Program-made: the position numbers and the translations under genes
The notes under the pieces: generated by a model
Told to the model about the DNA's origin: nothing
The model's input: the letters and a program-made list of their open reading frames with translations, nothing else
Database searches by the model: none
Shown: piece after piece, positions 1-52,140 of the stretch
Layout: every line of letters starts with the position of its first letter
Numbering within the stretch: the stretch's first letter is position 1
Assembly (NCBI GenBank): GCA_017654855.1
Contig: CM030334.1
Span: forward strand, 1,612,001 to 1,676,000
Length of the DNA stretch: 64,000 nt
DNA from: Podospora anserina
Taxonomy: Eukaryota
Direction of reading: 5' to 3'

Positions 1-1371
1 GAACAGGATAGCACTTATGTTGTTGTTATCTTGATGAACTTGTTCATATACGTTCAACATTTTTCCTGGTGTAAGATAATCTACCTTATGTCTGCTTTCA
101 CAAAATCAGATGTTTTGGTTTATTTTCAGTGTTCACCTTGGAATTCAGAAGCCGATGCTGTGCAACTGCAGCTGAGAAAGAAGCGACAGGTCGATGACAC
201 CTTCCTCATGAACACCAAGGCCCACTCCGGCACTGATGGTCCAGCAGACCGTCCCATGAGTAGGTCGTTCTTTCCCAAGTTCAATCATCGCATGTCTTAG
301 TCGCCTCAACAGATCATGATAAGCATAGCCTGGAAGTCTAATCTGGCGGAATTTCCTGTTTAGATGCCATGAAAATGCGTCCGTCACCTCTCATCCCTTC
401 AATCCGGTCCAGCATCATCTGGTGCTGGATATCGGCATCACAACAGCTACCCAAGTTTTGGTCATCTTGGATGTTGGACTGGCATATCTTACAGTCTTGT
501 GCAAGAGTATATCCATCTCATCTTCTTTCATCTGCCCACCATCCCGTCTTCAAGCCGTTCACCTCGCTTCTTCACCAACCTGAGCTCACTCAGCTGGCCA
601 TCTGAACTTCTGCAAAAACCTTGTGCTAGCCTAGGTAGCTGGTAGCAATTGCAACACATCACATTCCAGGGCTGATCAGATCTGGTGAGATATATCTCCG
701 TCGAACGCGTGGGCACACCTGTGAGCCATTTCGTTTGGCCGGCTAAAGCTAACTCATTTGTAGATATTGGACTCTCCCGTCCTGCTCCCACCACCTTGCA
801 GACGTACGTAACCACCATCTTCGCCGTTCTGGTCAAGACAAGCGACCTGGATGGGCCTGTGCCTGGCTCCCGTGGGCCTGGGTCCAGCAGTTGTTGGGCT
901 TTTTGTCGATCTTGGTGAAGTGCCGTACTCTTCCCCGGTTGCACTGTTGTCCGGCAAGGAACTTTTCCAGTCATCATTGTAACCACGAAGGGGTGGTGGG
1001 CACCGGGACCGAGAAGCCGTGCGGTGACCCGGAGCAAGGCGTTTGCATGTTTTTCTGGTCTGTCTTGTCCTGAGATAAGACACGGGCAGGCCCGCTTTCC
1101 TTCTTATACGAAGGCTGGGCATCTGATGTCTCCCATCGTCGAGCGTTTGCCTGCACGTACCCGTTCGGTTGTGCAACTTTCCGTCGACCGCCTCTTTATT
1201 GCCCGCTGGTGGACACGGGTGGCTGTTGCTATTGCGTTTGGCTGTATCTGGCACCTCAACTCGAGCTGTCATTCTGGAAAACCTCCGACTACTGCTATAG
1301 CCTCCTCGAGATTATTGTTGGCGAAGGCACTGCGGTATACTTGAGCCTCATCTCCCCCTATACTCGCCAAC

Positions 1372-3958
1372 ATGGCGGCCGGTATCACAGAATCATGGCC
1401 GATCAACGAGGTAGGTGCCACGACTCAGATCTTTGCTGGACCTCCAACTTACATGTCAAACAGATCGTTTATACTGCCATCGTGGGCCTGATTATGGTGG
1501 CAGCTTTTCTCGAATGGTTTCTCTGGATCGCTGCCTTCATGTACTGTCTGTGGAAGGTCTTTGTAAAGGCAGAACACTGGACGGTAAGATTCCTGGCTGT
1601 ACTGATTGGCACCGCCTTTCTTCTTCTCAGGTAACACCTCTCCTGTCTTTTCCAGATATGCTTTTGCTGAATGTTCAAAGATTCATCTTCCTCCCCATCA
1701 TGGTGGTCACGCTACCGTTACCAAGCGCGGTTGTTAGAATCTGGCCTACGGCAATGGTCAGCTTTCTCCAATGGTTCGCCTTTTACAGTTTTGCTGGTCT
1801 CTTGACTCTCCCCTGGCTTTTCTGCGTCTACCAGATTGTCACACATCAACTTGGAAGAAAGAAGCGCATTAAACAAGTGCTTGACGAGGTGTCGGCTCCC
1901 AAGGTCGTTATTGTCATGCCTTGCTATAAGGAGGAACCCGACGTCCTCGTCACCGCCGTCAACTCGGTCGTCGACTGCGATTACCCACCGTCCTGCATCC
2001 ACGTCTTCCTGTCCTTTGACGGGGACCAAGAGGACGAGCTATATCTCAACACCATCGAGAAACTCGGGGTGCCCTTGACACTCGAGTCATATCCTAACAG
2101 CATAGATGTCGCGTACAGGGCCGCTCGTATCACAGTATCTCGATTTCCTCATGGTGGAAAGCGCCATTGCCAAAAGATGACCTTCAAGCTCATTGACAAG
2201 GTCTACCACGAGTACCTGAAGAGAAACGACAACCTCTTCATCCTCTTCATCGACTCCGACTGCATATTGGATAGAGTCTGCCTGCAGAACTTTGTCTACG
2301 ATATGGAGCTCAGCCCCGGAAACAGCAGAGACATGTTGGCCATGACGGGTGTCATTACCTCGACTACTCGGAAACACAGCCTCATCACGCTTCTTCAGGA
2401 CATGGAGTACATACACGGCCAGTTGTTTGAGCGTACGGTGGAGTCGGGCTGCGGAGCAGTATCCTGTCTCCCCGGTGCCCTTACCATGTTGCGATTTTCA
2501 GCGTTTCGTCGAATGGCCAAGTACTACTTTGCTGACAAGGCCGAGCAGTGTGAAGACCTGTTTGACTTTGCAAAAAGTCATCTGGGAGAGGACCGATGGC
2601 TGACCCATCTGTTCATGATTGGTGCTAAGAAGCGGTATCAAATTCAGATGTGCACCTCGGCGTTTTGCAAAACGGAAGCTGTCCAGACGATGCGGTCTCT
2701 TATCAAGCAACGGCGTCGATGGTTCCTCGGCTTCATCACCAACGAAGTCTGCATGCTGACGGACTGGAGGCTGTGGAAGAAGTACCCGATCCTTTGCTTG
2801 GTTCGGTTCATGCAGAACACGATACGGACGACGGCTTTGCTTTTCTTCATCATGGTCCTGGCGCTAATGACGACGACCAAGAGAATTAACGACCTTCCTG
2901 TGGGCTTCATTGCCATCTCGCTCGGTCTCAACTGGCTGATGATGGTCTATTTTGGGGCCAAGCTCAGGAGGTTCAAGATCTGGCTTTACCCGCTGATGTT
3001 TGTGTTGAATCCGTTTTTCAACTGGTACTATATGGTTTACGGCATCTTCACCGCTGGTCAGAGGACCTGGGGAGGGCCACGGGCCGACGCTGCGGCAGCC
3101 GACTCGACCACAACAGCTCAGGAGGCGATCGAGCAGGCCGAAAAGGCCGGTGATGATCTAAACATTGTTCCCGAGTCTTTTATTCCGGCGGCACAGGAAA
3201 GGAAGGGTGTTGAAAAGGTGAACGCCAGTGCTATCAAGAGATCCAAGAGCGTTTTACAGCCGCCCAACCAAGTTATTGGCAAATTCGCGGCGCCTGAACG
3301 GACGCCAAGTGGATGGTATCAGCATCCAGATGAGTCCATGGCAAGTGTTGGTGTATTTGCCGGGTCGTCATCTCGCCTCGAACGAAAGGCGGATGTGCCA
3401 GAGCGGGACTCAATCGACAGCTCATCTTCGGCGCACACTGGAAGCTATTCGGTCTATATGCCACGCAGAGTGGAAAGCATCATGGGCGAAGAGGACCGGC
3501 GCAAATATGACCTAGCACATGCCAGCCAGGTCAACCAGTTTGCAAGCGCTTCGAGGATATTTCAGGGTCCACCAACAGGTCAAGTGTACGAGTATCCGGA
3601 ATCCGAACTCCAGAGGGCAGGATTTAGAGACCCCGGGGTACCCAACTCGAACCGGCCCGGGACGCACAGGAGGCTCGGCAGCAACGGCAGCGCAGGCTCC
3701 CAGAGCGTGGGAAGCTCACTCCAAGACCCTCACGGTCCAGAATCATCAGTGGAATCATTCCAGACATCTCGTCAGTCGCCAGTGCCACGGCCAGTCTCAG
3801 CTGCAGGACGATCTGGTAGGACACCGCTTGGTCGAGCTAGCTGGATGCATACATCATCCACAGAACAAGTCGAAACGCAAATCGATGAATCTCAGAGCCG
3901 TCTCGGGGCAACATCACAACCTCGCCAGGGACCACCAAGAGGTGACCACCGCCGATAG
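1372..3958 (+). CDS. Chitin synthase, short division-3 type (class VI/VII, ChsD-like); exons 1372-1410, 1464-1630, 1681-3958
   Basis: GT2 chitin synthase motifs FIDSD, QDMEY, CLPG, LGEDRWL, QRRRW. Introns GTAGGT..CAG (1411-1463) and GTAACA..AAG (1631-1680) join a hydrophobic N-terminus (MAAGITESWPINE-IVYTAIVG...) in frame. Confidence 0.93.
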
Positions 3959-38625: not shown

Positions 38626-40662
38626 TCAAGACGTCACCGGCCCAACCGACACCTTCTCCATCTCCCTCCTCTGCATCTCCATCTCAGCATACATACTAAT
38701 CTTCTCCCTCCTCTTCCTCTCCGTCTCCAACTCCGCAAACCTCCCCCTGGCACCGTGCTTAATTTTGGTGATCATATCCGCCGCCTTCCCCCTCGTGATA
38801 TCCCCCGGCTCAAGCGGAACCAGCTTCGACCTCAGCTTATTCAAAAATCTCAGCTGCCCCTCCGACGCCGGTGCCTTCCTCCACGGCATCCTCTGCGAGA
38901 TATAAAACGGCGCATAAAATTCCGCCACAAACCTATCACACCCATGCACCGCATCCCTAAAATCCATCGTCCTTAATATCTCCCTCGGCGCCGCCCACGG
39001 TGACTTCCCATTCGAGAGCGCCCTCATCACATACCCCTTCCACATCGTCTTCCTCTCTCCCTCCTCCTCTCCATCTTTCCCGCGTGGGGGTACAGCCACC
39101 TCCTTCTCCAACCGCATCACATCCCTATCCGTGCTCAAAACGTACTTGTTCGGATTCACCTGCACCCACGCATTCTGACTAATAGCCCTAATATGCTTCT
39201 CCCCCGCCGCATCCGAGATCAGGTCAAAAACAGAATCATACTCGGTAAACGCCACCTTGTAGCTCTCTCCCGTCGGACGCGCCTTCTTGGCAGCCTTCGA
39301 CATCCTCTTCTCCCTCCCCTCCGCCGTCTCCTTCTTCTCTCCCCCCTCTCTCGCCAAAGCGAGAAGTTCCCCTCCCGTCTTCTCCGCAACCAACTCATCC
39401 GGATCCAGCCCAAACAGCGTCGGCGTGGTGATGATCCCCACGTCCAAACTCGCCACCATGTCAATAACATGACAATTCTCCTTCCCCTCATGCAGCCTCA
39501 TCCCCCGTCCGATCATCTGTATCAGCAAATTCCTCGACCTCGTCGGCCTGGCCAACACGACGCAGTCAATATTGGGAATATCCGTCCCCTCGGTAAAAAC
39601 ACCACAGTTAAGCAAGACAGGAAACTCCTTTTTCTTGAACTTCTCCAGCGTTTCCGCCCGCTCCTTGGCCGGGGTGTCGCCGAATACATACCTGGCATCA
39701 ATCCCGTGATGCCGAAACCGTTCCGTCAAAGCCGCCACATGGCTCAGATCAACGCAAAAGACCAGCGTGGACTGTCTCTTTGGTGGTGCGGCTTTTGCAA
39801 ACCAGGCTCGAACGACAATGTCGTTTAGCTCGGGGGAGTTGACGGCTCTTGACAACGAGGCGGTTTCGAACTCGCCTGTCCCACCCGCACCCTTGGCTCG
39901 GACGCCGGAGAGGTCGGCTCTGGACTCGACGGTGGTGAAGACGACTTCGGAAAGCCACTTGTCCGCAATCATGTCGATGTAATCCTTGTGGTAGACGATC
40001 TCGTCGATGGCCGCTCCTAGTTTTAGGCCGTCTGAGCGGGAAAAGGTGGCTGATACGCCGACCAGGGTGGGGGAGTCGGGTTGTTTTTGCCGGAGGTTCA
40101 TGTGCTCCAAGATCTTGAGATAGCCTGGGGCGACGATGTGGTGTGCTTCATCGACGAGGACAAGTTTGTAGTTTGAGGGGTCGAACTTCAGGAGACGGTC
40201 TTTGGACAGGATGGATTGCATGCTGGCGACGGTGATGTCGGCAAAGCCGGTTGCTTGGAGGTTTCCGAGCTCGACTTCGACGGTCTTGTTTGGGTAGGCT
40301 GACTGGCAGTGGCGGGCGGCTTGCTCGACTAGTTCTCGCCTGTGGGCGAGGATGAGGGTGCGGGTTGCTTGGGGGTTTGGGGGTGTGACGCGGTCGATGA
40401 GGTGGGTGAAGATGACTGTTTTGCCGGCGCCGGTGGCGAGGGAGATGCCGAGGCGTTTGTGGCCTTGGGTTATGGAGGTCAGGACTGCTTGGATGCATTC
40501 TTCTTGGTAGGCGCGGAGTTGGATGGGGGTTGGTGGTGATTCTTGTGAGAGGCGGGTGGTGGTTGTGGTGAAGGGGCGTGAGGGCCAGAGTTGGAAGGAG
40601 GTGGTTGGGTCTTTGGGGGATTCTTTGAGACGGAGGGCGGTTTTGATGAGCCGCTTCATCAT
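38626..40662 (-). CDS. IRC3: Mitochondrial DExH-box helicase Irc3
   Basis: Presequence, LRAYQ, ATGAGKT, VDEAHH, SAT, VFTEGTDIPNIDC, QMIGRGMR, C-terminal WRKAPASEGQL. Confidence 0.93.
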   Translation of the reverse strand: MMKRLIKTALRLKESPKDPTTSFQLWPSRPFTTTTTRLSQESPPTPIQLRAYQEECIQAVLTSITQGHKRLGISLATGAGKTVIFTHLIDRVTPPNPQATRTLILAHRRELVEQAARHCQSAYPNKTVEVELGNLQATGFADITVASMQSILSKDRLLKFDPSNYKLVLVDEAHHIVAPGYLKILEHMNLRQKQPDSPTLVGVSATFSRSDGLKLGAAIDEIVYHKDYIDMIADKWLSEVVFTTVESRADLSGVRAKGAGGTGEFETASLSRAVNSPELNDIVVRAWFAKAAPPKRQSTLVFCVDLSHVAALTERFRHHGIDARYVFGDTPAKERAETLEKFKKKEFPVLLNCGVFTEGTDIPNIDCVVLARPTRSRNLLIQMIGRGMRLHEGKENCHVIDMVASLDVGIITTPTLFGLDPDELVAEKTGGELLALAREGGEKKETAEGREKRMSKAAKKARPTGESYKVAFTEYDSVFDLISDAAGEKHIRAISQNAWVQVNPNKYVLSTDRDVMRLEKEVAVPPRGKDGEEEGERKTMWKGYVMRALSNGKSPWAAPREILRTMDFRDAVHGCDRFVAEFYAPFYISQRMPWRKAPASEGQLRFLNKLRSKLVPLEPGDITRGKAADMITKIKHGARGRFAELETERKRREKISMYAEMEMQRREMEKVSVGPVTS

Positions 40663-41106
40663 GGCTATGGTGAGCTAGAGTGAGTGAGTGAGTGACTAAA
40701 TCTCATGGACGGTGGGTGTGTAAGTCGTCTTTTCATGAAAAGAGGTCGTTGATGTTTGAGATTGACAGCTGGTGAGGTGAAAGTTGCAGCTGGGGGCTGC
40801 TGTGCGGCTGTGTGATTGGTCAATTTTCTTCAGTGGGCGGACCGCCTGGGATTGCAGTACGCACCTCACTAACGCTTCACTGTAACAGCTGCAGCATCAC
40901 CGATGAGATTTGAGTTTCGACCGAGTTTTCCTCACCAATACATCAACAAACTCATGTTTTCAGGCGACCTGATCGATTTTATCTGTATCAGTGAGTTATC
41001 TCTCATACACCACCTATCAAAGGTAATGCTAACATCAATTACAGAATTGATCGAGGAACTAAAGTCACTGCTCATCACTCAAAACGAACGGTCTCCTCAA
41101 GTTAAC

Positions 41107-42960
41107 ATGGACATCGACGACGGGTCAGACGGCCAAAGTCCCAACACTGGACCACGCTCCCGCCGGATATCTATGCCAATCCGATCTTCGGGGGTAGACC
41201 CAGCACTTATCGATCCGGAGATTCTAGGTTCCGACTGCGAGCGGGAGGAGCCCGAGCTCAACGAGTTTGATGATGCGGAAGAGCGAGAATATGCCCCGTC
41301 AGATGCCTCCTCCGAGTACACTGCCCGGCCTAGTTCGGATGACGAAAATGACATCGATTCACCGCCAGACTACGACCTACCCGCGGAGCAACCACCCCAA
41401 TCCAAACCAAAAAAACGTTCTCTCAGCACCACCTCCCCCCGCCCTCTCAAACGCCGCAAACCACCACCCCCCTTCCGCCCCGCCTACCTCGACCTCCTGA
41501 ACGAAGACATCGTCTCCACCTCCACCAAATTCCTCCCACCACCCCCCTCCTTCCCCCCCCTATCCGACTCCCAACACGGCCTCGCATACTGGACCGAAAC
41601 CGAAAAGATCCTCCTCTTCGAATCCCTCTCCCGCCTCGGCCCCTCCAACCCCCTCGCCATATCCCAACGCCTCAAAACAAAATCCGAACTCGAAGTCTCA
41701 GCCTACATCTCCCTCCTCAAATCTTCGGCCGGTGGTTCAGACCCAATCCCCGTATCCGACATCCCTTCCGCAGTAGAACTCTCCCCAGCCCTCTGCCTAG
41801 CCCTCGAAGACGCCTCCGACGCTGTAGCAACAAAACAACTCACCCACGAACGAACCCTCGAATCTAACAAATGGGGCCCAGCACACTGGCTCATCACCCC
41901 CCAAAACATCGAAGAGATCGAACGTGATCCCGACCCCAAAATGCTCTTCCACCCCCTTTTTCGTCTGCGGACTTGGCTTAAGCTCTCGGAGCGGGTGTTT
42001 ATGAACTCGAGGGTGGAAGACTATAACTACCGCACTTTTCTGCCGGAGAAGGGACAAAAACCGGGGATTCGTGCTACTGCGCTCGAGGATTTTTATTCGT
42101 TGGTCGTCTCCCTCACGCGAAGATTGGTGGCGACGTCTATTTTCATGGCAGAGGAGAGGATAGACCAAAAGAGGAAGAGTGCTTATCCCGAGATTAGCAG
42201 GCGGGTTTGGAAAGGGGATGTGAAGGCTGCGCTGCTGGCGGTGAATATGCCTAGTCCTGCCAGGAGGGAAAGGGAGAAGTTTTGGGGAGAGGCTGCGAGG
42301 AGGCTGAGGTTGAATGTTGTGGACGATAGTGCCCAGGACGAGAAGGTGAGGATGGGGTGGGATCAGGTGGAGGAGGTGTTGGGGGTTCGGACGACGGGTG
42401 GTGGTGGCCCCGGTACCGCTGCTTCAGCGCCAGAGGGAGAAGATGATGACGAGGGGTCGGAATATGAGGAAGCCGAGCAATATGAGAATGAGAGCGAGTA
42501 CTCGTTTGTGATTGATGGCTTGGCTGAGAAGCTGCCTGTGTTGGAGGAGGTGGACGAGGCGGTCAGGTTTAGTGCGTTGGAGTACCCTGATAACAAGCAG
42601 GCGAGGAAGACCTTGAGGGACAGGATTAGGAATGAAAAGGAGAGGGAGGGTTACGCGGACAAGCTTGATATGAGCGCGTCGCGTGTGGAGGAGAGGAGGT
42701 TGTGGGAGTTGCTGGGCCAGAAGCCGCCTGAGGGGATGGCACCGCTGGAGGAACCGGTGAGGCCGGCGGCCAGTAAAGGAAAAATAAAGACTGTGGCGGA
42801 GCTGATTGGGGGGTTTGATAGGGGTTTGAAGACAGAGGGGGAGGTGCCGAGCAATTGGGAGATGGAGTATGTCTTGTTGAAGCAAGCAGAGAGGGAAAAG
42901 GAGAAGGCCGGGCGGGAGAGGTTGAGGGAGCTGAACAAGCAAGTGGACGATGATGAATGA
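41107..42960 (+). CDS. RRN5: RNA polymerase I upstream activation factor subunit Rrn5-like (SANT/Myb-like domain)
   Basis: YWTETEKILLFESLSRLG..KTKSELEVSAYI, PSAVELS, LKLSERVFMN, EDFYSLVVSLTRRLV resemble filamentous-fungal Rrn5. Start codon uncertain. Confidence 0.75.
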   Translation: MDIDDGSDGQSPNTGPRSRRISMPIRSSGVDPALIDPEILGSDCEREEPELNEFDDAEEREYAPSDASSEYTARPSSDDENDIDSPPDYDLPAEQPPQSKPKKRSLSTTSPRPLKRRKPPPPFRPAYLDLLNEDIVSTSTKFLPPPPSFPPLSDSQHGLAYWTETEKILLFESLSRLGPSNPLAISQRLKTKSELEVSAYISLLKSSAGGSDPIPVSDIPSAVELSPALCLALEDASDAVATKQLTHERTLESNKWGPAHWLITPQNIEEIERDPDPKMLFHPLFRLRTWLKLSERVFMNSRVEDYNYRTFLPEKGQKPGIRATALEDFYSLVVSLTRRLVATSIFMAEERIDQKRKSAYPEISRRVWKGDVKAALLAVNMPSPARREREKFWGEAARRLRLNVVDDSAQDEKVRMGWDQVEEVLGVRTTGGGGPGTAASAPEGEDDDEGSEYEEAEQYENESEYSFVIDGLAEKLPVLEEVDEAVRFSALEYPDNKQARKTLRDRIRNEKEREGYADKLDMSASRVEERRLWELLGQKPPEGMAPLEEPVRPAASKGKIKTVAELIGGFDRGLKTEGEVPSNWEMEYVLLKQAEREKEKAGRERLRELNKQVDDDE

Positions 42961-42985
42961 TGTTGTGGGTCATCTTTCCACCACC

Positions 42986-43092
42986 TTGACTGGCAGCATC
43001 AATCCATTTCAGAGTCTCAACCACAGAACTTGTGAACCTATATGTTTGACAGGCAGCATCAGCCCATTCAAGAGTCTCCTACAAAACCTGTG
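42986..43092. repeat. Two imperfect ~48-bp direct repeats (period 60) between convergent genes
   Basis: ttgactggcagcatcaatccatttcagagtctc..cagaacttgtg versus ttgacaggcagcatcagcccattcaagagtctc..caaaacctgtg. Confidence 0.85.
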
Positions 43093-43106
43093 CCTTTACC
43101 TCTTAA

Positions 43107-46100
43107 TCACTCCCCACCCCCAAAAACCTCATCAATCCTCCTCTTCCTATCCCAAACAACCTTATCATCACTCTTCCTCCTGAAATACAGAATCCGATGC
43201 TGCGGAATAAACTCCTCATCCGTCTGCTCAGTCTTCCAGTCATCGAGTTCCTTCTCCTGCGCCCCCAAGAACCGATCCTCATACCCCACCACAAAATCCC
43301 CCGACTCCATCCCCGGATCCCACCTCAACCGGTTCATCACATCAATCGCGCTCCTCAGCTTCCCCTCTCTCGTCACAATAACATACTCCTTCTTCTTTCC
43401 CTTCTTCTTCCTCCCCTTCTTCTCAACCTCATAATCCTCCTCGCCGTCATCCCCCCCCTCTTCCAATTCCTCCTCACCATCCTCCTCCTCTTCCGTCTCC
43501 TCCTCCCCGGCGTTCCCCTCCCCCCACTCCCTCACATCCAACACCAACTCCGGAAGCGAGGTCTGGTTAACCAGAGAGGCAGACATCCACCGATTCTGCG
43601 GATTAAAATACTTCTCATCCCCCCTGATCTGCCCCTCAAACCTCGGCAGCACACCCCGCAACTGCCCCAGCGCGTTCAGCAGCTCGCTCTTCCCCAAGCC
43701 CTCCGACGCCTTGTCCAGTCCGATGAGATAACACCCCCTGTACGACCCGCCATCCTCTGTCAGATCAGCCGCCTCGACAAACCTCGCTGGCCAGATCCTC
43801 GCGTGGAGGGAGGAACACTTCCTTCCTATGTCTACCAGTAAAAGCGCACAGCGGGACTCGAACCACCCGAGAAAAGAGGCTCCTTTTGTGGGCGACAAGC
43901 CCCAGTAGGAGAGATCGAGCTTGATATAGGTTTTGAACTGTGTTAAAAACGTTGTTGCGGGAGCCGAGAGAAAGGATGACCAGGATGGGGAGGAAGAAAG
44001 GGCGGAAGCGGCAAGGGAGAATTCCCTTTGGAGGGTCAGGACGGAGGGGAGGGTGGCGGCGGAGGCGGTGTTAAGGCCGGGAGGGAAGTACCCCAGGATG
44101 GCGAGGGGTTCGCGGTAGGAGCGTGTGTATTGCGGTACTGAGGTGTGAAAGCTTGGGTCGAAGACTAGATTGTTGGCAAAGTCAAAGGCGGAGTAATGGG
44201 TGAAGAAAGAGGTGATCAAATCCTCGACGGAAGGTTTGGATTTGGCAAGAAGCTTCTGCACGCGAACGAGGAGGATGGCGACTTGGATTCCCGATAGGTA
44301 CCCAAAGCGGGCGGAGTAGACACCACGGGATCTAGCCCAGGTTTTGATGAAGCGGTGGGCTAGGCGGAAAGAGACAAGATCAGGGAGGGAACGGCGGAGG
44401 TAATCAATGTCGCGGATGGCTTTGAGCTTGTTGAGGGTCTGCGGGGCGAGGGACCAGACGGGATCTTTGGCTGGGAGCCGGAGGACGTTGGGCCACTGTT
44501 GAGCAACGGAGGCGGCCGGGCAGTATTGGAGGTCCATTCTGACGCCTTGGACTTCGAGCTCGAGCATGGTGCCTGTGTTGGCTTTGACTCGGCGGAGAAT
44601 GCGGACACCCTGGGTGGCGGCTTTGCGGAGGGATGAGGAGGCAACGGAGAAGAAGGTGTTGGAGCTGAAGGGGCCGATGCAGCAGACGTCGATGTCGGAT
44701 GAGGTTGTCCATACTCCGAGAGCGTATGAGCCCACGGGAACGACGACTACAGAAGATTGGAGTCTGGCGGCAGCGGGGGTCTTAGTGGTGGCGTCGAGAA
44801 GGAGAGTTTTGAGCAGCTCAAAGGCCTCTCTTCTCTGGGCAGCTTCCTCCTCGCCGGGGGTGACATTCAGCTCGGAGAGACAAGCCTTGATACCGCCAGC
44901 CCCCGAGAGTGCCTTTGGCGCCTTCTCAAGATGAGCAGGCACAACAAGCGGGTTTTCTGGCTCCTGTTCCTGTTCCATTTCCTCTTTCTCGTCATCTCCA
45001 AACCCTCCAATGCTGAGCACAGCCCGGATCCCCCAGTGGTCACTGGCGAAGGACTCCTCGACAGCATCTCCAACATGGCCCTTTTCCTGACCAAACATGT
45101 TGAACTCCTTCACATCGAGAAAATCCTCGCCGCGAACAAGAATCCGGTCATATCGCTGTGGCCAGATATTTCCACCACTCAAAGTCACCGCAACACCATT
45201 GACAGGCGGATCCCATGTTGCACCACCATCCTTGTCCTCAGCAGTAACCTCCCAGGCATCCACCAAGCCGGCGTCCTTGAAAATAGTGTCCAATCCTTTC
45301 CACTGCTCAACCGTAAGGTCCGAAACATTCTTCTTCTCCAGCGCCTCCTGAATGGCCTCTTTCGAAGTAGCAATATTCCAATCCCCAGCCAGCACCCAAG
45401 GACACCCCCCATAATTCTCCTCCAAATACCCAATCAACCTCTTGATATCCCCCTTCCTCGATGCCACCGCCCCATCAGTAAGTCCATGACTGAGATGAAC
45501 CACTGCCAGCACAACCGGCTTGAACTCATCCCCCTGCCACTTTCCCACATGTCGAAACCTAGCCACCAAAGCACCCTTGTGCTTCCTCTGGAAAGAAACA
45601 GATTCCCAGTCAAAGGCGACCTTGCTCAAGACAACCATATTGAGAAAATTCGGCAGCGGCCCCATACCCGGCTGATCAGGCGGTCCGTGAGAGCAATACG
45701 GATACCGATCCGAGACTCTCTCGTCACTGAGCAGAAACGACAGGAACCCATCCGTGACCTCCTGCAAGACCAGCGCGTCCGCGTCGGCCTTGTCGTCGAG
45801 AATGTTGTTCACAAGGAGGGGATACCGGTCCTCTTTTTGTGGGTACTCAAACTCAGCGAGAACGTTATAACTCGCCACCGTCAACATCTTTCTCCCTTGC
45901 CCTTCGTCGCTGTCATCTCGATCATAGTCCCCCTCCTGAGCAACCCCCCAAATCCGCATCTCCTCATCCCAGTACACCGTCCTCCCGCTCATCAGCTCAT
46001 CTCTATACCCCTTCTCTTCCCCCGTCTCTCCCAAAAACCCCTGATCAAACCCCCTCGTCTCTTCCAAAACCGTCACCTTCCCATCATGCACCCCCACCGT

Positions 46101-46667
46101 CCCCCAAAGTCTCATCTTCCCATTTTCCCTCCTCAAAATCACCAGTTCTTCCACTCTGAAATAACACCCCGACATCAGACCCAACTTTCCCATCAAATTC
46201 TCCCACTCCTTCCCCGCTACCTCGCCCGCAGCCTGCCCCATGGTCAAATGCATCTTAAAGGGTCGGTCATTCTTCCCCTCTACCCCCCGTTTCTTAAATC
46301 CACTGACAAGATCATGAACAAGGTCTCTGAGCTGTTCACGCTGGTCTTGGTAGGGGGAAGTGAGGAAACAGACACTTTCGTTGCGGCGGGGAAAGTGTCC
46401 TGGCTGAGTGAGTGCAATCGTAAATGGGTCAGGGGTTGTTTTCCGGGTGGAGAGGATTGAGGAAATGATGTGAGAAGCGGCGGGGAGGGAGGAAGGGGGG
46501 CAGAAGGGGTAAATGAGGTTGACGTGGGGTGGCCATTTGTGGGAGGCGGCGTCGTAGAGGGAGCGGATGCGGTTAAGGGTTGGCCATTGGGACTCGTAGG
46601 GGAGGATGGCGAGGGCTGTGTCGTATGAGTTGAATGAGGAGTTGAATGAGGGTTCGTCGGTCGCCAT
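43107..46667 (-). CDS. Multidomain RNA-processing protein: 2H phosphoesterase + EEP phosphoesterase + poly(A)-polymerase-like nucleotidyltransferase + MJ1316 (DUF504) domain
   Basis: 2H: WPPHVNLIYPF and MHLTMG. EEP: SYNVL, LQEV, GDWN, RYDRIL, SDH. NTase: GSYALG..SDID..MDLQY, FGYLSG. MJ1316: DVMNRLRWDP..VGYEDRF..FIPQHRILYF..VWDRKRRID. Confidence 0.92.
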   Translation of the reverse strand: MATDEPSFNSSFNSYDTALAILPYESQWPTLNRIRSLYDAASHKWPPHVNLIYPFCPPSSLPAASHIISSILSTRKTTPDPFTIALTQPGHFPRRNESVCFLTSPYQDQREQLRDLVHDLVSGFKKRGVEGKNDRPFKMHLTMGQAAGEVAGKEWENLMGKLGLMSGCYFRVEELVILRRENGKMRLWGTVGVHDGKVTVLEETRGFDQGFLGETGEEKGYRDELMSGRTVYWDEEMRIWGVAQEGDYDRDDSDEGQGRKMLTVASYNVLAEFEYPQKEDRYPLLVNNILDDKADADALVLQEVTDGFLSFLLSDERVSDRYPYCSHGPPDQPGMGPLPNFLNMVVLSKVAFDWESVSFQRKHKGALVARFRHVGKWQGDEFKPVVLAVVHLSHGLTDGAVASRKGDIKRLIGYLEENYGGCPWVLAGDWNIATSKEAIQEALEKKNVSDLTVEQWKGLDTIFKDAGLVDAWEVTAEDKDGGATWDPPVNGVAVTLSGGNIWPQRYDRILVRGEDFLDVKEFNMFGQEKGHVGDAVEESFASDHWGIRAVLSIGGFGDDEKEEMEQEQEPENPLVVPAHLEKAPKALSGAGGIKACLSELNVTPGEEEAAQRREAFELLKTLLLDATTKTPAAARLQSSVVVVPVGSYALGVWTTSSDIDVCCIGPFSSNTFFSVASSSLRKAATQGVRILRRVKANTGTMLELEVQGVRMDLQYCPAASVAQQWPNVLRLPAKDPVWSLAPQTLNKLKAIRDIDYLRRSLPDLVSFRLAHRFIKTWARSRGVYSARFGYLSGIQVAILLVRVQKLLAKSKPSVEDLITSFFTHYSAFDFANNLVFDPSFHTSVPQYTRSYREPLAILGYFPPGLNTASAATLPSVLTLQREFSLAASALSSSPSWSSFLSAPATTFLTQFKTYIKLDLSYWGLSPTKGASFLGWFESRCALLLVDIGRKCSSLHARIWPARFVEAADLTEDGGSYRGCYLIGLDKASEGLGKSELLNALGQLRGVLPRFEGQIRGDEKYFNPQNRWMSASLVNQTSLPELVLDVREWGEGNAGEEETEEEEDGEEELEEGGDDGEEDYEVEKKGRKKKGKKKEYVIVTREGKLRSAIDVMNRLRWDPGMESGDFVVGYEDRFLGAQEKELDDWKTEQTDEEFIPQHRILYFRRKSDDKVVWDRKRRIDEVFGGGE

Positions 46668-47942
46668 GGCTGTTGTTGGCGACTAAAACTTGATAGAGAT
46701 TTATCGAGGTTGTAAAAGGGGGGTATAAGTGGTGTGAAAGTGAAGCTATTCGCAGTTGTCAACTGTGTCGTGTCGATCGTGAAATAGATCAGTGTGTCGC
46801 CCTGTTACACTGCGATGAAATAAATCGATATCGAATCTGATAGCAACTCCAACACGAACCCAGATCCAAGGACCGCTCAGTCTTATACATGACCTCACAT
46901 CTCACCATACCCAACGACGCATTCCCACAGCATCAATGACTGCTTCCCCGCATTGGCGGCGCCCAGCTCGCCAATTCCCACCGCTTAAGCCGCTTTTGGG
47001 GGCCATCGGAGCCCGCTAACGCAGGTACGACCACTAAAGAGACCCTGGAATCACTCCGGTGAGTCACTGGCCGGTGTTTACTCGGTAGAACGGCATACTT
47101 CTTGCAGGTCGCGAGAAGGAACGAGGTTTGCTGTGCGAAAATGCCTTGCCGTGATGAATTGTAGAAGACGGTCTACTCGATTCGGCGATATGTGCAAGTG
47201 ATAGACCTATACTCGCTTCTTCTGAAAATGAAAAAGACAATGGTTGAAATTGGCAGCGAGTCTGGAAGTCATCGTGGCGCAGCACCTCTGCCGGACAGCT
47301 CCAAGCCCGCGATGTCAGGTTGTGAGAGGCTGATGGTCGAACCGGCTGTGCGGTTGGTGTCGCTGCCAATAAGCAATCCGCATTCTGATGAAAAAGGAAG
47401 GATGGTGTTGAAGAGAGAGGCCGCCGGTTTGTGGGGTGGAAGAGTGTATTGGGTGGGGTTGTTCTCGAAAAAGTGTTAGTGCATTGCTGCAAACAGTTGC
47501 GGGAACACTAACATTTTGTGGAGCACATCAACCTCCAGGGTCCGGTGGCTTGCTTCCCGAACACCAACTTCCTCTCAACCTCACTCACCACCCAAAACTC
47601 ACTTGAATCTGGCTCTTTGGGTTGTGAGGTGTAAAATGCATATCGTCTCTGCGGCGCTCGAAATGCCGCCTATCATGATCGAGCAGCATCTCATCGGAGT
47701 GGCTGCCTGTCTGCCAGCCCAATGACAGCGATATGTTGTTGTTCGAGTTCATCAGCCGCAGTTTCTCTTGAATATGGTGGGCATCTTCAACGGTTCATGT
47801 TGGCCCCTTCTACCTAATATCCAGCCTTATATTTGAAGCCATTCTCATGTTCGCGAAGTGAAGCAAATGTCGAAAGTGTTTTAAAGCACCATCAACCTCA
47901 CCCTCCCATGTCTTCTTGATCCAGGGGTAATCCTCCCTCAAA

Positions 47943-48621
47943 ATGACACCCGAAAGATTCTACATCCCCCGAGCCTTCAACTGGATCCTCCCAGCCCAAG
48001 TCTTGCTAGCCGCAGTAGCCATCTACTCCTCCACCTACGTCTTCAACCTAGCCACAACCCCAACAATCCTCACCATCATCGCCGTAAGTAGTTCCCTCCT
48101 CATATCCCTAATATATCACTCACTAACCCCCCCAGACCAGCATCCACCTCCTCCTAGCCCTCTCCCTCTGCCTCACCCATTCCATCCCAACCCGAAACAC
48201 CCACCAAATATTCACCACCCCCATCCTCCTCCTCCTCCTCCTCCTCCTCCTCGGCACCGGCCTCTGGGCCGCCAGCCTCTGCTACCACGCCAAACAAGTC
48301 GACCTCCTCCTCACCTACCCACTCCTCTCCCAAACCACCACCCAACCCCTCACCCCAACCTGGTCCAAAATCGGCCTCGCAACCACCGCCCTAAACCTCT
48401 TTCTCGATCTCGCCCTCCTCCTCCTACTCACCCTCTCCATCATCCTCGACCAAAACCCATCACCACCACCACCACCCTTACCAACAACCATCAGTTACCC
48501 CCAACAACAGTCCCACTACACCACCCACCACCAGTTCACCACACCAACCTCCCCTATCCCTCCCGTCCCCCCTATCCCAAGCACCTACTACTCCACCGCC
48601 ATCCCCGAATCACGCATTTAA
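47943..48621 (+). CDS. Small four-transmembrane (MARVEL-like) protein, 208 aa; intron 48084-48135
   Basis: Removing GTAAGT..CTAAC..CAG joins hydrophobic exon 1 to a frame with three more TM segments (TSIHLLLALSLCL, ILLLLLLLLLGTGLWAASL, IGLATTALNLFLDLALLLLLTLSII) ending in TAA at 48619-48621. Confidence 0.72.
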
Positions 48622-49518
48622 AGATAGCTACCATTCCTCTCAAGAAAATAAGTACTCCTCTCAAAATGATATACACGCCTTTCAACATAGCCAGCACCCT
48701 CTTATGCCTAAAGATAATCAGCACCCCTTCAAAACCCACCAACGCATCCAATACCTCTAAAACAAAACCATACAAATAACACAAATACGCATCATACACA
48801 TCATACACATACACACCACCATCAACCAAGTAAGGGCTGGTAAAACACAAACTACACGCTTCATCCACACCCCTACTAACTACATCGCTACATCATCTAC
48901 ATTCCTCGCACTAATTCCCCCCAACAACTTGACCCCCTGATCAACACAAACCAACCAGTATGATTTCATACCTCCCCCATGTTACAGAAAGAAAGAAAAA
49001 ACCGCTGGGTTGAAACAAGACTGCCGAGCAAAAGTGTCGTCTGCTGTTGTGTAATGCCCTCCTTTTCGAATCAGACATGCCTCATTCATGATTCGATTTG
49101 CCATTCACGTCCGCATCCTCTCCAGCACTGGATCCTGCACCTGTTTAAGAACTTGTTCCAGAACTTGCTCCGGAACTTGCTCCAGAACTTGCTCCCCCAT
49201 TTACTCCATCACTTCCTCCCCCATTTGCTCCAGCACCAGCTCCTGGAGCCAGCGTATCTTCACGCGTCCCGAACGTCACGAACGTCGACGAGCTGGCCCA
49301 AGACACCGGCCGCCGCAGTGGGGGCAAAGACGCCGGCCGCCGTGCTACTGCCTCCACAGCATTTCTTAGAGATCGTACAATTCGCCAATCCTCCTCCGTC
49401 ATCTCGCCTCTGCTACGCCCAACAGAGCGAGGCGGGGCCCCAGGCGTCCGGGACCTCATTGAGCTGGGCAACACCTTCGGCTGCACTGGTGTTGTTCCCG
49501 CACCCGCTCCAGCATTTG

Positions 49519-49686
49519 CTCCAGAACCGGATCCCGCACCCCCTCCAGCACCAGATCCCGCACCCCCTCCAGAACTGGATCCCTAACCCCCTCCAGAACC
49601 AGATCCCTCACCCCCTCCAGTACCAGATCCCTCACCCCCTCCAGTACCAGATCCCTCACCTCCTCCAGCACTAGATCCCGCATCCA
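49519..49686. repeat. 24-bp tandem repeat x7 (GGGEGSGT-type peptide on the minus strand)
   Basis: ctccag(a/c/t)accagatccc(t/g)cacccc units; one unit carries the GAG>TAG change. Confidence 0.9.
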
Positions 49687-51155
49687 CCTCGGAACCCGAA
49701 GCCACACCAGCTCCCGCACCAGCTCCCTCGCCTCTGGTACGCCTGATATAGCGAGGCGGGGCCCCAGGCGCCCGGGACCTCATTACCCTGGGCAAAACTT
49801 CTGGCTGCACTCCAGCATTTGCTACAGAACTGGATCCCGCACCCGCTCCAGCACCCCCGCCAGAACCCGAAGCCACATCAGCTCTCGCACCACCGCTTGG
49901 AACTAGCGTACCGTCACGCGTCCGGAACATCATGTTGCTAGACAATACTTCCATTGGTGTTATTTCCGCACCCGCTTTAGCACTTGCTCCAGAACTGGAT
50001 CCCTCACCCCCTCCAGCACTGGATCCCTCACCGGCTCCCGCACCAGCTAGCGTACCGTCACACCTCCGGAACCTCGTCGAACTGGGCCAAACCCACGGCC
50101 GCAGTGGATCAGAACAAGCTCTTCGAGCCAGCAAATCTCGCGGATCCTCCTCCGCCAGCTCGCCAGTCCTGATATTGATATAATGAAGCACGTTCTCGGG
50201 CATTTGAACCGCCACCCAACCGGGCAACTCGTCCGGCTGCAGCGGTGGTCTCGCAGCCGCTCCCGGAGCTAGCTAATCTCGCGGATCCTCCACCGTCACC
50301 TCGCCCGTGCCGGTGTTGATATATTTAGGCACATTTCCAGCCGTCCATATCTTCACCCAACCGGGGCAATGATCCGGTATCATCTGTAATGCCTCCACAA
50401 AATGTGCTGGAGCCCGCCAAGCAGCTCGCGGGTCCTCCGGCGTCTCCTCGCCGCCTGTGCTGGTGTTGACATCGCGAGGCGCGTTTCCAACCCTCTTCAA
50501 ACTCAGCAAATTGCGCAAATCCTCCGGCGGCACTGGTGGTGTTCCCCTACCCCCCTCTCTTTTCAGCGGATCCTCCCACGACCTCTCGCCTGTGATCTTG
50601 TTGATGTAGTAAGGAATGTGGTCACGCGTCCGCAACTTCACCCAACCGTGGCAATGTTCCGGCGTCAGTATTTCTCCCCCAGCACCTCTTGGAATGCGAT
50701 CACCTCGCGGGTCCAGCCGCGTCCTTCTGGGTGCGCTTCTGGAGAAGTCGGCATAGTAATGTCTGCCGGCAGAGTCGCAAAATACGTCCCAGTCAGGGGG
50801 GAAATCACGACGTCCCGGATGCCGCCATACGTTCTCGAGCTGTTCCTGTGTTCCTCGCGGATCATCATAGGTCTCCTTCCCGGTCTTGAGGTTGATAAAA
50901 ACTTTACCGCTGTCCTTCCGTCTACATACCCACTCAGGGGGGAGCGGGACTTCTCGTAATTCTTCGTCCTCCTCAAAAGAATCTTCCTCAGAAGGATTAT
51001 CGTTTTGAGCACGCTGAGCAGCTGTTGTAGATGACTCCCCTCGCTGGGGGCCTTCTCCTATATCGTAACGGATTCGTTTGCGTAGTGCCTTTGGGTCTCG
51101 TGCGCGTATTCCTCTGATTTCTGTATTTGGGTCTCGTAGGCGTATTCTTCTGACA

Positions 51156-51335
51156 TCTGCCTTTGGGACGACTTCTGCCTTTGCGACGACTTCTGCCTTT
51201 GAGACGACTTCTGCCTTTGGGGCAACTTCTGCCTCTGGGACGGTTTCTGCCTCTGGGATGACTTCTGCCTTTGGGGCGACTTCTGCCTCTGGGACGGTTT
51301 CTGCCTTTGGGTCGACTTCTGCCTCTGGGTCGACT
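51156..51335. repeat. 18-bp tandem repeat x10 (PKAEVV/PEAETV peptide on the minus strand)
   Basis: tctgcct(t/c)tgg...gact units read directly. Confidence 0.92.
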
Positions 51336-52140
51336 TCTTTGTCTTTTCCTTTCAGTGCTCGTTTACCCTCTGGCGTGAGCTTGTCCAGCTCCGTCTCCTC
51401 GACTCCTCCGCTTTCCGCCTTTGGGGTTGCTGGCTCGGGTGGTGCTGGTAGAGCGCAGCAGCACATATAACGCCCGAAAGACCTCTAGCCACATTCCAGC
51501 TCATCACGTCTCACAGCCTCCCAGAAACGGACGCAGGATATAAGAAATAGCAAAAAACCCAAGCCACCCAAGATGGAGGATACCACCGTTGTGACCACGA
51601 GCGTTGTGTTCGGGTCCCTTTTGTCAACGGGTGCCATGGTGGTGATGCTGAATGGTGTCTGCGTGTTGATGTCGGTAAATCTACTGGTAACGAACGAACA
51701 ATCGCGGGCTGACTGATGATACTGGCGATAGACTGATGACACTGGTGATGGGAGAGGGAGAGGGAGAGGGGAAGAGGGAAAAACCCAGATGTCGTTGAAC
51801 CATAAGACCTCTGGAAGGCAGGTTCCTTCCCCGAAACTTGGTCGCGGCAGGGGCCCGTCAACTGCCCCGAGAGTGAGCCCGAAAGGGAAGAAACCTAGGC
51901 TCTCGCAACGAAAAGTCCCCATAGAAGTGGAAGGATCATGGTGAAAAAGCCCCCGCGCAGGAAAGTGCCCTCGAACACCAGAAAGAAACATCAGTCACAA
52001 ACTCGGGCACCCTCCCCACAAAATAATTGGGACAGCAAAAGTAGGTTTGACCTATGCCATATTCGTGTCAATCATTTGTGATGAGAGAGTGCTCAGGGTA
52101 TCCATTCATCAATCTCGGCTCGTATCAAAAGTCTCCCCGT

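What the first reader, a model, noticed from the sequence alone, without database searches (positions are those of the whole stretch)
43107..46667. Single-chain RNA end-healing and tailing machine (2H + EEP + PAP + MJ1316)
Seen: four domains with apparently intact catalytic motifs (two 2H His motifs; EEP N/E/D-x-N/D/SDH; NTase GS..DID..D). Known: 2H enzymes open 2',3'-cyclic phosphates, EEP enzymes remove terminal phosphates or adducts, PAP-like NTases need a 3'-OH, and MJ1316 is a computationally predicted RNA-end recognition domain also found with 2H in LENG9. Inference: it binds a cleaved RNA end, converts >p to 3'-OH and adds a tail for repair or decay, possibly countering ribotoxins. I know of no experimental characterisation in fungi.
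Basis: partly seen in the sequence, partly recalled or inferred. Interest (0 to 1): 0.7.

Follow-up and report, generated by a model that had tools for sequence, protein, structure and literature searches.

The report
Fungal four-domain RNA end-repair enzyme
This is an intact, transcribed fungal gene that joins four modules for cleaning and extending broken RNA ends in one protein; it belongs to a widespread, already predicted but untested RNA-repair family, so it is a good enzyme to test and not a new kind of system.

Summary
Confirmed. 43107-46667 (-) is one 1,186-residue reading frame: 2H, EEP, a full canonical-type poly(A) polymerase (PAP) and MJ1316, with catalytic residues in place. It is single-copy, separate from Pap1, and has the same order from chytrids to Sordariales; its PAP domain follows the fungal tree. 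RNA contigs bridge every domain junction. Bacteria carry the same four domains in another order, and in 50 of 61 assessable loci an RNA ligase-kinase unit lies directly upstream. That favours repair: open the cyclic phosphate, remove the phosphate, add nucleotide(s), ligate. Three corrections. The EEP is TDP2-like, not ANGEL/CCR4-like, so its 3'-phosphatase role is inferred from context. PAP residues recalled as adenine selectors are changed, so a poly(A) tail is not assured. In this Podospora lineage the 2H domain changed 10 of 41 conserved columns, more than any of 104 orthologues. No activity is shown; ten literature searches found no experiment, and the key 2016 prediction paper was not readable. 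The scan met this family before in other fungi, giant viruses and bacteria. New member of a known, untested kind; interest 0.38.

The parts
43107..46667 (-). Whole open reading frame, 1,186 aa, no intron needed
   Evidence: RNA contigs without gaps over 43601-47374 (run X1) and 41529-43838 (run X3)
46092..46628 (-). 2H phosphoesterase domain (residues 14-192), YjcG/LigT-like; H48-x-N50 and H140-x-T142; lineage-specific burst of change
   Evidence: Pfam PF13563 E 2.8e-22; family profile to B. subtilis BSU11850 (2d4g) E 2e-15
45003..45890 (-). EEP phosphoesterase domain (residues 260-555), TDP2-like; N268, E303, H391, D429, N431, D507, D543, H544
   Evidence: Pfam PF03372; family profile to TDP2 E 5.7e-21; fold Z 26.0, rmsd 2.6, 238 aligned to TDP2
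43542..44945 (-). Canonical-type poly(A) polymerase: nucleotidyltransferase, middle and RRM-like domains (residues 575-1042); G646-S647, D658, D660, D712
   Evidence: phmmer to PAP gamma E 4.8e-21; fold Z 33.5, rmsd 3.0, 430 aligned to mammalian PAP
43365..43514 (-). Disordered acidic then basic linker (residues 1052-1101) that tethers MJ1316
   Evidence: pLDDT under 50; sequence
43116..43361 (-). MJ1316 domain (residues 1103-1184), predicted reader of cyclic-phosphate RNA ends; best-conserved domain
   Evidence: Pfam PF04457 E 1.4e-18; only MJ1316 match found in this genome; median identity 72% to out-clade orthologues
46668..47390 (-). Probable 5' leader of about 710-720 nt; strand not shown by contigs
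   Evidence: contigs of three runs from three studies stop at 47374, 47377 and 47390; 10 upstream ATGs, 10.5 expected by composition

Best explanation
A single-chain enzyme that prepares the 3' side of a broken RNA for repair. MJ1316, on a flexible tether, holds an end with a 2',3'-cyclic phosphate (inferred from a published prediction). The 2H domain opens the ring to a monophosphate (inferred from LigT/ThpR chemistry). The EEP domain removes that phosphate (inferred from context). The PAP domain then adds one or a few nucleotides to the free 3'-OH, replacing what the nuclease removed (fold and catalytic triad shown; product length and nucleotide inferred). In bacteria the kinase and ligase encoded upstream finish the job. 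In this fungus they are not linked; Trl1 and an Rnl5-type ligase elsewhere in the genome are candidates. Shown: the gene, the four folds, the catalytic residues, vertical inheritance in fungi, transcription, the bacterial gene context. Not shown: any activity, substrate or partner.
For: Same four domains in two orders: 2H-EEP-PAP-MJ1316 in fungi and MJ1316-EEP-2H-PAP in bacteria. Of 80 prokaryotic loci kept, 67 were multi-domain and 61 of these had 2 kb or more upstream; 50 of 61 have a PF09414 ligase within 3 kb upstream on the same strand (47 of 50 actinobacteria, 2 of 2 cyanobacteria, 1 of 8 myxobacteria, 0 of 1 Cytophagales). The ligase is fused to, or followed by, an AAA_33 kinase with weak similarity to bacterial Pnkp; 48 of 48 fused genes keep EKxDG and Walker A. 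The HD domain between them keeps a literal HD in only 3 of 48, which leaves the EEP as the evident monophosphatase of that two-gene unit. Such ligases need 5'-phosphate and 3'-OH, work with kinases and phosphoesterases, and pol-beta NTases are predicted to restore lost nucleotides before ligation (PMC7824862, section 3.4.9 read). ThpR, a 2H enzyme, turns RNA>p into a 2'-phosphate end (PMC4201822, passages). MJ1316 is described as recognising 2'-3' cyclic ends and fused to RNA repair domains across eukaryotes (PMC6514570, passage). Fungal fused PAP domains form one clade (99/97) apart from Pap1 (100/99) and follow the fungal tree.
Against: No activity measured here or found in print. The EEP is TDP2-like (Z 26.0) rather than ANGEL2-like (Z 21.2), and TDP2 hydrolyses 5'-phosphotyrosyl bonds (PMC4925160, passages). 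The ligase link rests mostly on 47 related actinobacteria; it is absent in 7 of 8 myxobacteria and in the fungal locus, whose neighbours are a helicase and a Myb-like gene. The 2H lacks ThpR's essential second-motif arginine (Q145 here). A few of 41 diverse relatives have lost EEP or NTase catalytic residues (P0144, P0155, P0157), and the Endogone model has no MJ1316 hit. The 2H domain of this lineage has changed sharply.
Confidence: 0.5

Rival explanations
1. Heal and tail for decay. In fungi the protein cleans the cyclic end and adds an oligo(A) or mixed tail that hands the fragment to the exosome, in the manner of TRAMP.
For: The polymerase is a complete canonical-type PAP with its RRM-like domain. 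No ligase gene lies next to it in the fungus, nor upstream in 7 of 8 myxobacterial loci. Tailing of healed ends for decay is established for other non-canonical PAPs (recalled).
Against: The ligase-kinase unit upstream in 50 of 61 bacterial loci argues that the ancestral purpose was rejoining. The genome holds an unlinked Rnl5-type ligase.
Confidence: 0.25
2. Two-ended healer. The 2H and PAP domains work on the 3' side, while the TDP2-like EEP clears adducts from the 5' side (a protein-linked or nucleotide-linked 5' phosphate) to give a ligatable 5'-phosphate.
For: TDP2 is the best match by profile (E 5.7e-21 against 3.9e-6 for ANGEL2, 5.7e-7 nocturnin, 2e-3 CNOT6L), by fold (Z 26.0 against 21.2, 22.9, 21.9) and among Atlas feature hits (0.95). 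TDP2 also unlinks VPg from RNA (PMC4925160, passages).
Against: The domain has H-L-S-H where TDP2 has H-L-E-S, and the genome has a separate EEP that keeps THLES and matches TDP2 first (E 0.003). Two other EEPs score within about 1 Z unit of TDP2 (4ruw 25.0, neutral sphingomyelinase 24.9). This reading leaves the 2H product's phosphate without a remover in most actinobacterial units.
Confidence: 0.15
3. [quoted passage not shown]
For: 2H enzymes act on cyclic mononucleotides too. The 2H domain here departs at 10 of 41 conserved columns, against 22 of 298 in the other three domains (Fisher p 0.002).
Against: Both 2H histidines are kept, and within the clade the domain is conserved at 71-78%, like other close pairs (65-76%), which fits a shift more than decay. 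Fusion with PAP and MJ1316 and the ligase context point to RNA ends.
Confidence: 0.1

Closest known systems
Fungal 2H-EEP-PAP-MJ1316 orthologues (named 'polynucleotide adenylyltransferase', '2'-5' RNA ligase superfamily-domain-containing protein', 'DUF455 domain-containing protein')
   Same: Same order and motifs. 553 hits among 8,000 scored candidates; named members in Sordariomycetes, Eurotiomycetes, Dothideomycetes, Leotiomycetes, Tuber, Dactylellina, Lentinula, Sistotremastrum, Chytriomyces. Closest named: Podospora comata, 98%.
   Different: The Podospora/Triangularia clade has a reshaped 2H domain. This copy needs no intron.
Bacterial MJ1316-EEP-2H-PAP proteins ('RNA repair domain-containing protein', Corallococcus; many Streptomyces, Kitasatospora, cyanobacteria)
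   Same: Same four domains and catalytic motifs, including the frequent H-x-N first 2H motif.
   Different: Other domain order; usually directly behind an RNA ligase-kinase unit (50 of 61), which the fungal gene lacks.
Canonical poly(A) polymerase (Pap1, Pla1, PAP alpha/gamma)
   Same: Three-part fold over 430 residues, Z 33.5; GS motif and three aspartates.
   Different: Separate clade; the genome has its own Pap1 on another contig, 28% identical over 189 residues; bovine N202, N239 and probably T317 align with K749, A786 and G859.
TDP2 (5'-tyrosyl-DNA phosphodiesterase, VPg unlinkase)
   Same: Best structural and profile match of the EEP domain; shared T-W/F-D..N, R-x-D-R-I and SDHWG segments.
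   Different: 22-24% identity; HLES motif not kept; fused to RNA enzymes; a more typical TDP2-like gene exists elsewhere in the genome.
T4-type and bacterial Pnkp heal-and-seal systems; RlaP NTases; ANGEL2
   Same: Same logic: open the cyclic phosphate, remove the phosphate, phosphorylate the 5' end, ligate; NTase predicted to put back a lost nucleotide. ANGEL2 is an EEP that hydrolyses 2',3'-cyclic phosphates.
   Different: Different parts: 2H plus TDP2-like EEP in place of HAD or calcineurin phosphatases; a eukaryote-type PAP in place of RlaP; no ligase in the chain.

Membership tests
MJ1316/2H/EEP/PAP RNA-repair fusion family | All four domains in one chain | tested here: met
MJ1316/2H/EEP/PAP RNA-repair fusion family | Catalytic residues of 2H, EEP and NTase present | tested here: met
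MJ1316/2H/EEP/PAP RNA-repair fusion family | Groups with the fungal fused proteins on a tree | tested here: met
   PAP domain tree of 51 rows (2 of 53 rows under 200 aa left out): fungal clade 99/97, midpoint root only; EEP and 2H quick trees less resolved
MJ1316/2H/EEP/PAP RNA-repair fusion family | RNA ligase-kinase gene next door (seen in most bacterial members, not required of eukaryotic ones) | tested here: not met
   flanking genes are a helicase and a Myb-like gene; ligases lie elsewhere in the genome
MJ1316/2H/EEP/PAP RNA-repair fusion family | End-healing and nucleotide-adding activity | not testable with these tools
   needs biochemistry; none found in ten literature searches
Canonical poly(A) polymerase (Pap1) | NTD, middle and RRM-like domains with three catalytic aspartates | tested here: met
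   architecture as described in PMC9922296 passages
Canonical poly(A) polymerase (Pap1) | Orthology with Pap1 | tested here: not met
   separate clade; own Pap1 on another contig
Canonical poly(A) polymerase (Pap1) | Adenine-pocket residues (bovine N202, N239, T317; roles recalled) | tested here: not met
   K749 (K in 119 of 121), A786 (A in 101 of 121), G859 (G in 119 of 121; mapping uncertain by one residue)
TDP2 | EEP fold closest to TDP2 with the full metal and phosphate-binding set | tested here: met
TDP2 | H-L-E-S motif | tested here: not met
   H391-L-S-H here, H-L-T-C/S/H in relatives; THLES seen in C. elegans TDP2 and in locus L007
TDP2 | 5'-phosphotyrosyl hydrolysis | not testable with these tools
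   needs assay
ANGEL/CCR4/nocturnin clade | Closer to ANGEL2, CNOT6L or nocturnin than to other EEPs | tested here: not met
   Z 21.2, 21.9, 22.9 against 26.0 for TDP2; E 3.9e-6, 2e-3, 5.7e-7 against 5.7e-21
LigT/ThpR RNA 2',3'-cyclic phosphodiesterase | Two catalytic histidines | tested here: met
   H48, H140; aligned to D. radiodurans-type entry 5h7e, E 0.012
LigT/ThpR RNA 2',3'-cyclic phosphodiesterase | Extended motifs HxTxxF and HxTxxR | tested here: not met
   HxNxxY and HxTxxQ here; motifs from PMC4201822, which notes YjcG also lacks them; TIGR02258 29 bits against cut-off 65.7

The most novel reading that the evidence does not exclude
Filamentous fungi have a second, Trl1-independent route for repairing broken RNA: this protein clears the cyclic end, puts back a nucleotide with a poly(A) polymerase retuned away from pure ATP use, and passes the RNA to an unlinked Rnl5-type ligase, while its TDP2-like domain also clears blocked 5' ends; the reshaped 2H pocket of the Podospora lineage marks a change of substrate.
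Probability: 0.18. Interest if true: 0.75.

Novelty: new member of a known kind. Interest (0 to 1): 0.38.

Why it matters
Most filamentous fungi appear to carry a second canonical-type poly(A) polymerase joined to end-healing enzymes, and no test of it was found. If it repairs broken tRNA or rRNA it would add a repair route to fungi beyond Trl1 and would be the first test of three standing predictions: that MJ1316 reads cyclic ends, that an NTase restores nucleotides before ligation, and that a TDP2-like EEP can act on RNA ends. This copy is intron-free and comes from a harmless, genetically tractable group, which makes the test cheap; its unusual 2H domain means an out-clade orthologue should be run beside it. 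As a one-protein converter of cyclic-phosphate ends to tailed ends it could also be a sequencing reagent.

Tried and rejected
Literature: Burroughs and Aravind 2016 (gkw722, PMC5062991), the likely source of the family's prediction, is not held; I saw only its entry in a reference list, and its text and supplements may already list this architecture and the ligase operon. A TDP2 mechanism paper was also not held. Ten searches found no experiment on this protein; searches used the phrase 'poly A polymerase', which probably cannot match 'poly(A) polymerase', so their blanks are weak. A Neurospora knockout of a 'DUF455 domain-containing protein' (NCU11050) is listed in PMC4545925 (passage); I did not test whether it is the orthologue and do not use it.

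Expression: no RNA holder listed on record; runs X1-X4 are taken as RNA because GT..AG joints at 40990-41045 and 48083-48136 appear in 4 of 4 runs. No single contig spans the whole frame. The loose end at 44220 seen in 4 of 4 runs is a short word shared with another locus, not a splice; the loose ends at 44805 and 46500 were not traced. A 45-nt skip at 46012-46058 in 1 of 4 runs lies between short direct repeats and lacks splice ends; taken as artefact or strain indel. Upstream ATGs in the leader: 10 seen, 10.5 expected, so no sign of uORF control.

Other: PADLOC gave no family for 5 of 6 proteins and one weak kinase-motif hit. Viral contigs gave 2 partial matches of 66 candidate stretches, not followed. 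Two attempts to map the EEP's first half onto TDP2 residue by residue failed because PAP filled the printed alignments, so the role of invariant K364 is open. The first HD count used a misaligned column and was redone. TIGR02306 found nothing in the own genome, although PF09414 and the Naegleria ligase structure do match L096. The 2H and MJ1316 folds were barely tested by the fold searches. The PF03372 search of the own genome scored 8 candidates only, so the absence of an ANGEL/Ngl gene is not shown. No complex prediction was run.
Full report
The observation. The window holds one uninterrupted reading frame of 1,186 codons at 43107-46667 on the minus strand. Pfam places a 2H domain at 24-183, an EEP domain at 265-516, a nucleotidyltransferase and PAP central domain at 596-837 and MJ1316 at 1105-1174; five of the nine families listed pass their curated cut-off. 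The closest named relatives are from the Podospora anserina complex, 98% identical. The gene is single-copy: the protein finds only itself and the canonical Pap1 in its genome, and MJ1316 and PF13563 each match once. An AlphaFold model from 70 sequences has mean pLDDT 88.2 and pTM 0.55, with a disordered acidic-basic linker at 1052-1101. The first 2H motif is H-x-N; it is N in 112 of 112 rows with a letter, N or T in bacteria and T in basidiomycetes and the chytrid, so it is a family variant.

Expression. No run is on record as RNA, but four runs from four studies show GT..AG joints in two neighbouring genes in 4 of 4 cases. One contig runs without gap from 47374 to 43601, across 2H, EEP and PAP to about residue 1022; another (41529-43838) joins the end of PAP to MJ1316 but also runs into the convergent neighbour, so it is weaker evidence. 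No contig spans the whole frame and none shows an intron in it. The 'separate transcripts' refutation is not met.

What each domain is. PAP: residues 575-1042 align with mammalian PAP over 430 residues (Z 33.5, rmsd 3.0), RRM-like domain included; Cid1 and URT1 score 24-25 over the first two domains only. On a tree of 51 PAP domains the fungal fused copies form one clade (99/97) that runs from Endogone and Chytriomyces through basidiomycetes to Sordariales, apart from five canonical PAPs (100/99); the root is a midpoint only, so no donor is claimed. Bovine N202 and N239 align with K749 and A786, and T317 probably with G859. I recall these as adenine-pocket residues and could not confirm it in a paper. 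About 18 of 41 diverse relatives keep N at 749 (read by eye). EEP: a 13-sequence family profile matches TDP2 at E 5.7e-21, ANGEL2 at 3.9e-6, nocturnin at 5.7e-7 and CNOT6L at 2e-3. The domain folded alone (pLDDT 92.9) matches TDP2 first among 48,161 chains (Z 26.0, rmsd 2.6, 238 aligned), then 4ruw 25.0, neutral sphingomyelinase 24.9, nocturnin 22.9, CNOT6L 21.9, ANGEL2 21.2. It lacks TDP2's HLES, and the genome has another EEP that keeps it, so this is a TDP2-related paralogue, not TDP2 itself. 2H: closest to B. subtilis BSU11850 (E 2e-15); it lacks ThpR's extended motifs. MJ1316: the best-conserved part; its function is a prediction.

Relatives. The same order occurs in Aspergillus, Coccidioides, Diplodia, Plenodomus, Sordaria, Tuber, Dactylellina, Helotiales, three basidiomycete lines, Chytriomyces and an unnamed eukaryote-like protein. 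A search from a distant member reached bacteria (28 hits among 8,000 scored), where the order is MJ1316-EEP-2H-PAP; a dinoflagellate protein has a third order. I set aside 13 loci that matched one domain only; of the other 67, 61 had at least 2 kb upstream, and 50 of these have an RNA ligase gene within 3 kb upstream on the same strand: 47 of 50 actinobacteria, 2 of 2 cyanobacteria, 1 of 8 myxobacteria, 0 of 1 Cytophagales. In actinobacteria it is one gene, PF09414 ligase plus AAA_33 kinase, often ending within about a dozen bases of the four-domain gene; in the two cyanobacteria it is a ligase gene and an HD-kinase gene. All 48 fused genes keep the ligase lysine motif and Walker A, but only 3 of 48 keep a literal HD. 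The actinobacteria are kin and the one myxobacterial case groups with them, so this is about two independent lineages, not 50.

How it most likely works. ATP-dependent ligases of this kind need 5'-phosphate and 3'-OH ends and work with kinases and phosphoesterases; NTases linked to them are predicted to restore nucleotides lost to nucleases such as RloC (PMC7824862, section 3.4.9 read in full). The bacterial unit supplies each step once: kinase for the 5' end, 2H to open the ring (as ThpR does, giving 2'-phosphate), EEP to remove the phosphate, PAP to add nucleotides, ligase to seal. I carry this over to the fungal protein at 0.5. The fungus has Trl1 and an unlinked ligase like Naegleria Rnl (E 2.4e-10); whether either is the partner is unknown. 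Rivals: tailing for decay (0.25), a TDP2-like 5' role for the EEP (0.15), small-molecule substrates or a vestigial 2H (0.1). Against the whole picture: no activity is shown; a few relatives have lost EEP or NTase residues; most myxobacterial copies have no ligase upstream.

What is particular to this copy. Leaving out the eight closest sequences when defining conservation, the 2H domain departs at 10 of 41 conserved columns, more than any of 104 other orthologues (median 2.4%), against 8 of 91 in EEP, 12 of 159 in PAP and 2 of 48 in MJ1316. The changes at T99, R117, H155 and W170 are shared by six Podospora, Cercophora samala and Triangularia proteins. Median 2H identity to out-clade proteins is 34-35% for this clade and 45-56% for six other references, while the other domains show no such drop; inside the clade the 2H is conserved at 71-78%. 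This looks like a burst on the stem and then renewed constraint, that is a shift of substrate or partner; decay is not excluded.

Comparison with what is known. The family is in Pfam by its parts and named automatically by JGI and NCBI. PMC6514570 (passages) says MJ1316 recognises cyclic ends and is fused to RNA repair domains across eukaryotes, citing Burroughs and Aravind 2016, which I could not read; I recall that it describes such fusions. Papers seen: PMC6514570, PMC4201822, PMC4925160, PMC9922296, PMC4545925 and bioRxiv 2022.04.28.489582 as passages; PMC7824862 as passages and one section. No supplements were read. Ten searches found no experiment. Earlier notes of this scan report the same family in other fungi, giant viruses and bacteria, one with the ligase-kinase link; I had found that link before reading them, and they are not independent support.

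Verdict. A real, transcribed, vertically inherited gene; a new member of a known but untested kind. Interest 0.38: unsurprising to a specialist in RNA repair domains, but a clean, testable target, with two refinements (TDP2-type EEP, reshaped 2H) that change how it should be assayed.

Noticed in passing
L096 (G000:C4:429394-432993), frame 646-3048: An unlinked RNA ligase of the PF09414 family, closest solved relative Naegleria gruberi RNA ligase (E 2.4e-10), with a long low-complexity tail; a candidate sealing partner.
   Followed up: partly
L007 (G000:C4:2997116-3000595), about 990-2020: A stand-alone TDP2-like EEP gene with THLES and a likely intron; best structure hit C. elegans TDP2 (E 0.003). 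Its last motif reads TDH rather than SDH.
   Followed up: partly
window 38626-40662 (-): 678-aa DEAD/ResIII-type helicase (Pfam ResIII, Helicase_C); resembles mitochondrial Irc3 (name recalled).
   Followed up: no
window 40903-42960 (+): Convergent neighbour with a weak Myb-like hit and a spliced 54-nt intron at 40991-41044; its transcript contigs overlap the 3' end of the four-domain gene.
   Followed up: partly
window 47390-47570: About 200 bases between the contig ends of this gene's leader and of the divergent neighbour; possibly a shared promoter.
   Followed up: no
window 48979-51466: Repeat-rich region with WW domains (Pfam E 1.9e-15) and strong GC skew; one run skips 96 nt at 49536-49633 between repeats.
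   Followed up: no
L014 and L015, directly upstream of the match: In two Corallococcus genomes a Sir2-family gene, not a ligase, lies 150-190 bases upstream of the four-domain gene (Pfam checked for L014).
   Followed up: partly
L086:6971-11308: A 1,446-aa Myxococcota protein with the same 2H domain at its N-terminus and no other Pfam match over about 1,250 residues.
   Followed up: no
L028, L031, L024, L052, L063: In several Streptomyces the ligase-kinase and four-domain genes lie close to the EF-Tu, EF-G and ribosomal protein cluster.
   Followed up: no
P0307 (Effrenium voratum, 1,418 aa): Third domain order: 2H, about 450 unassigned residues, MJ1316, EEP, PAP.
   Followed up: no
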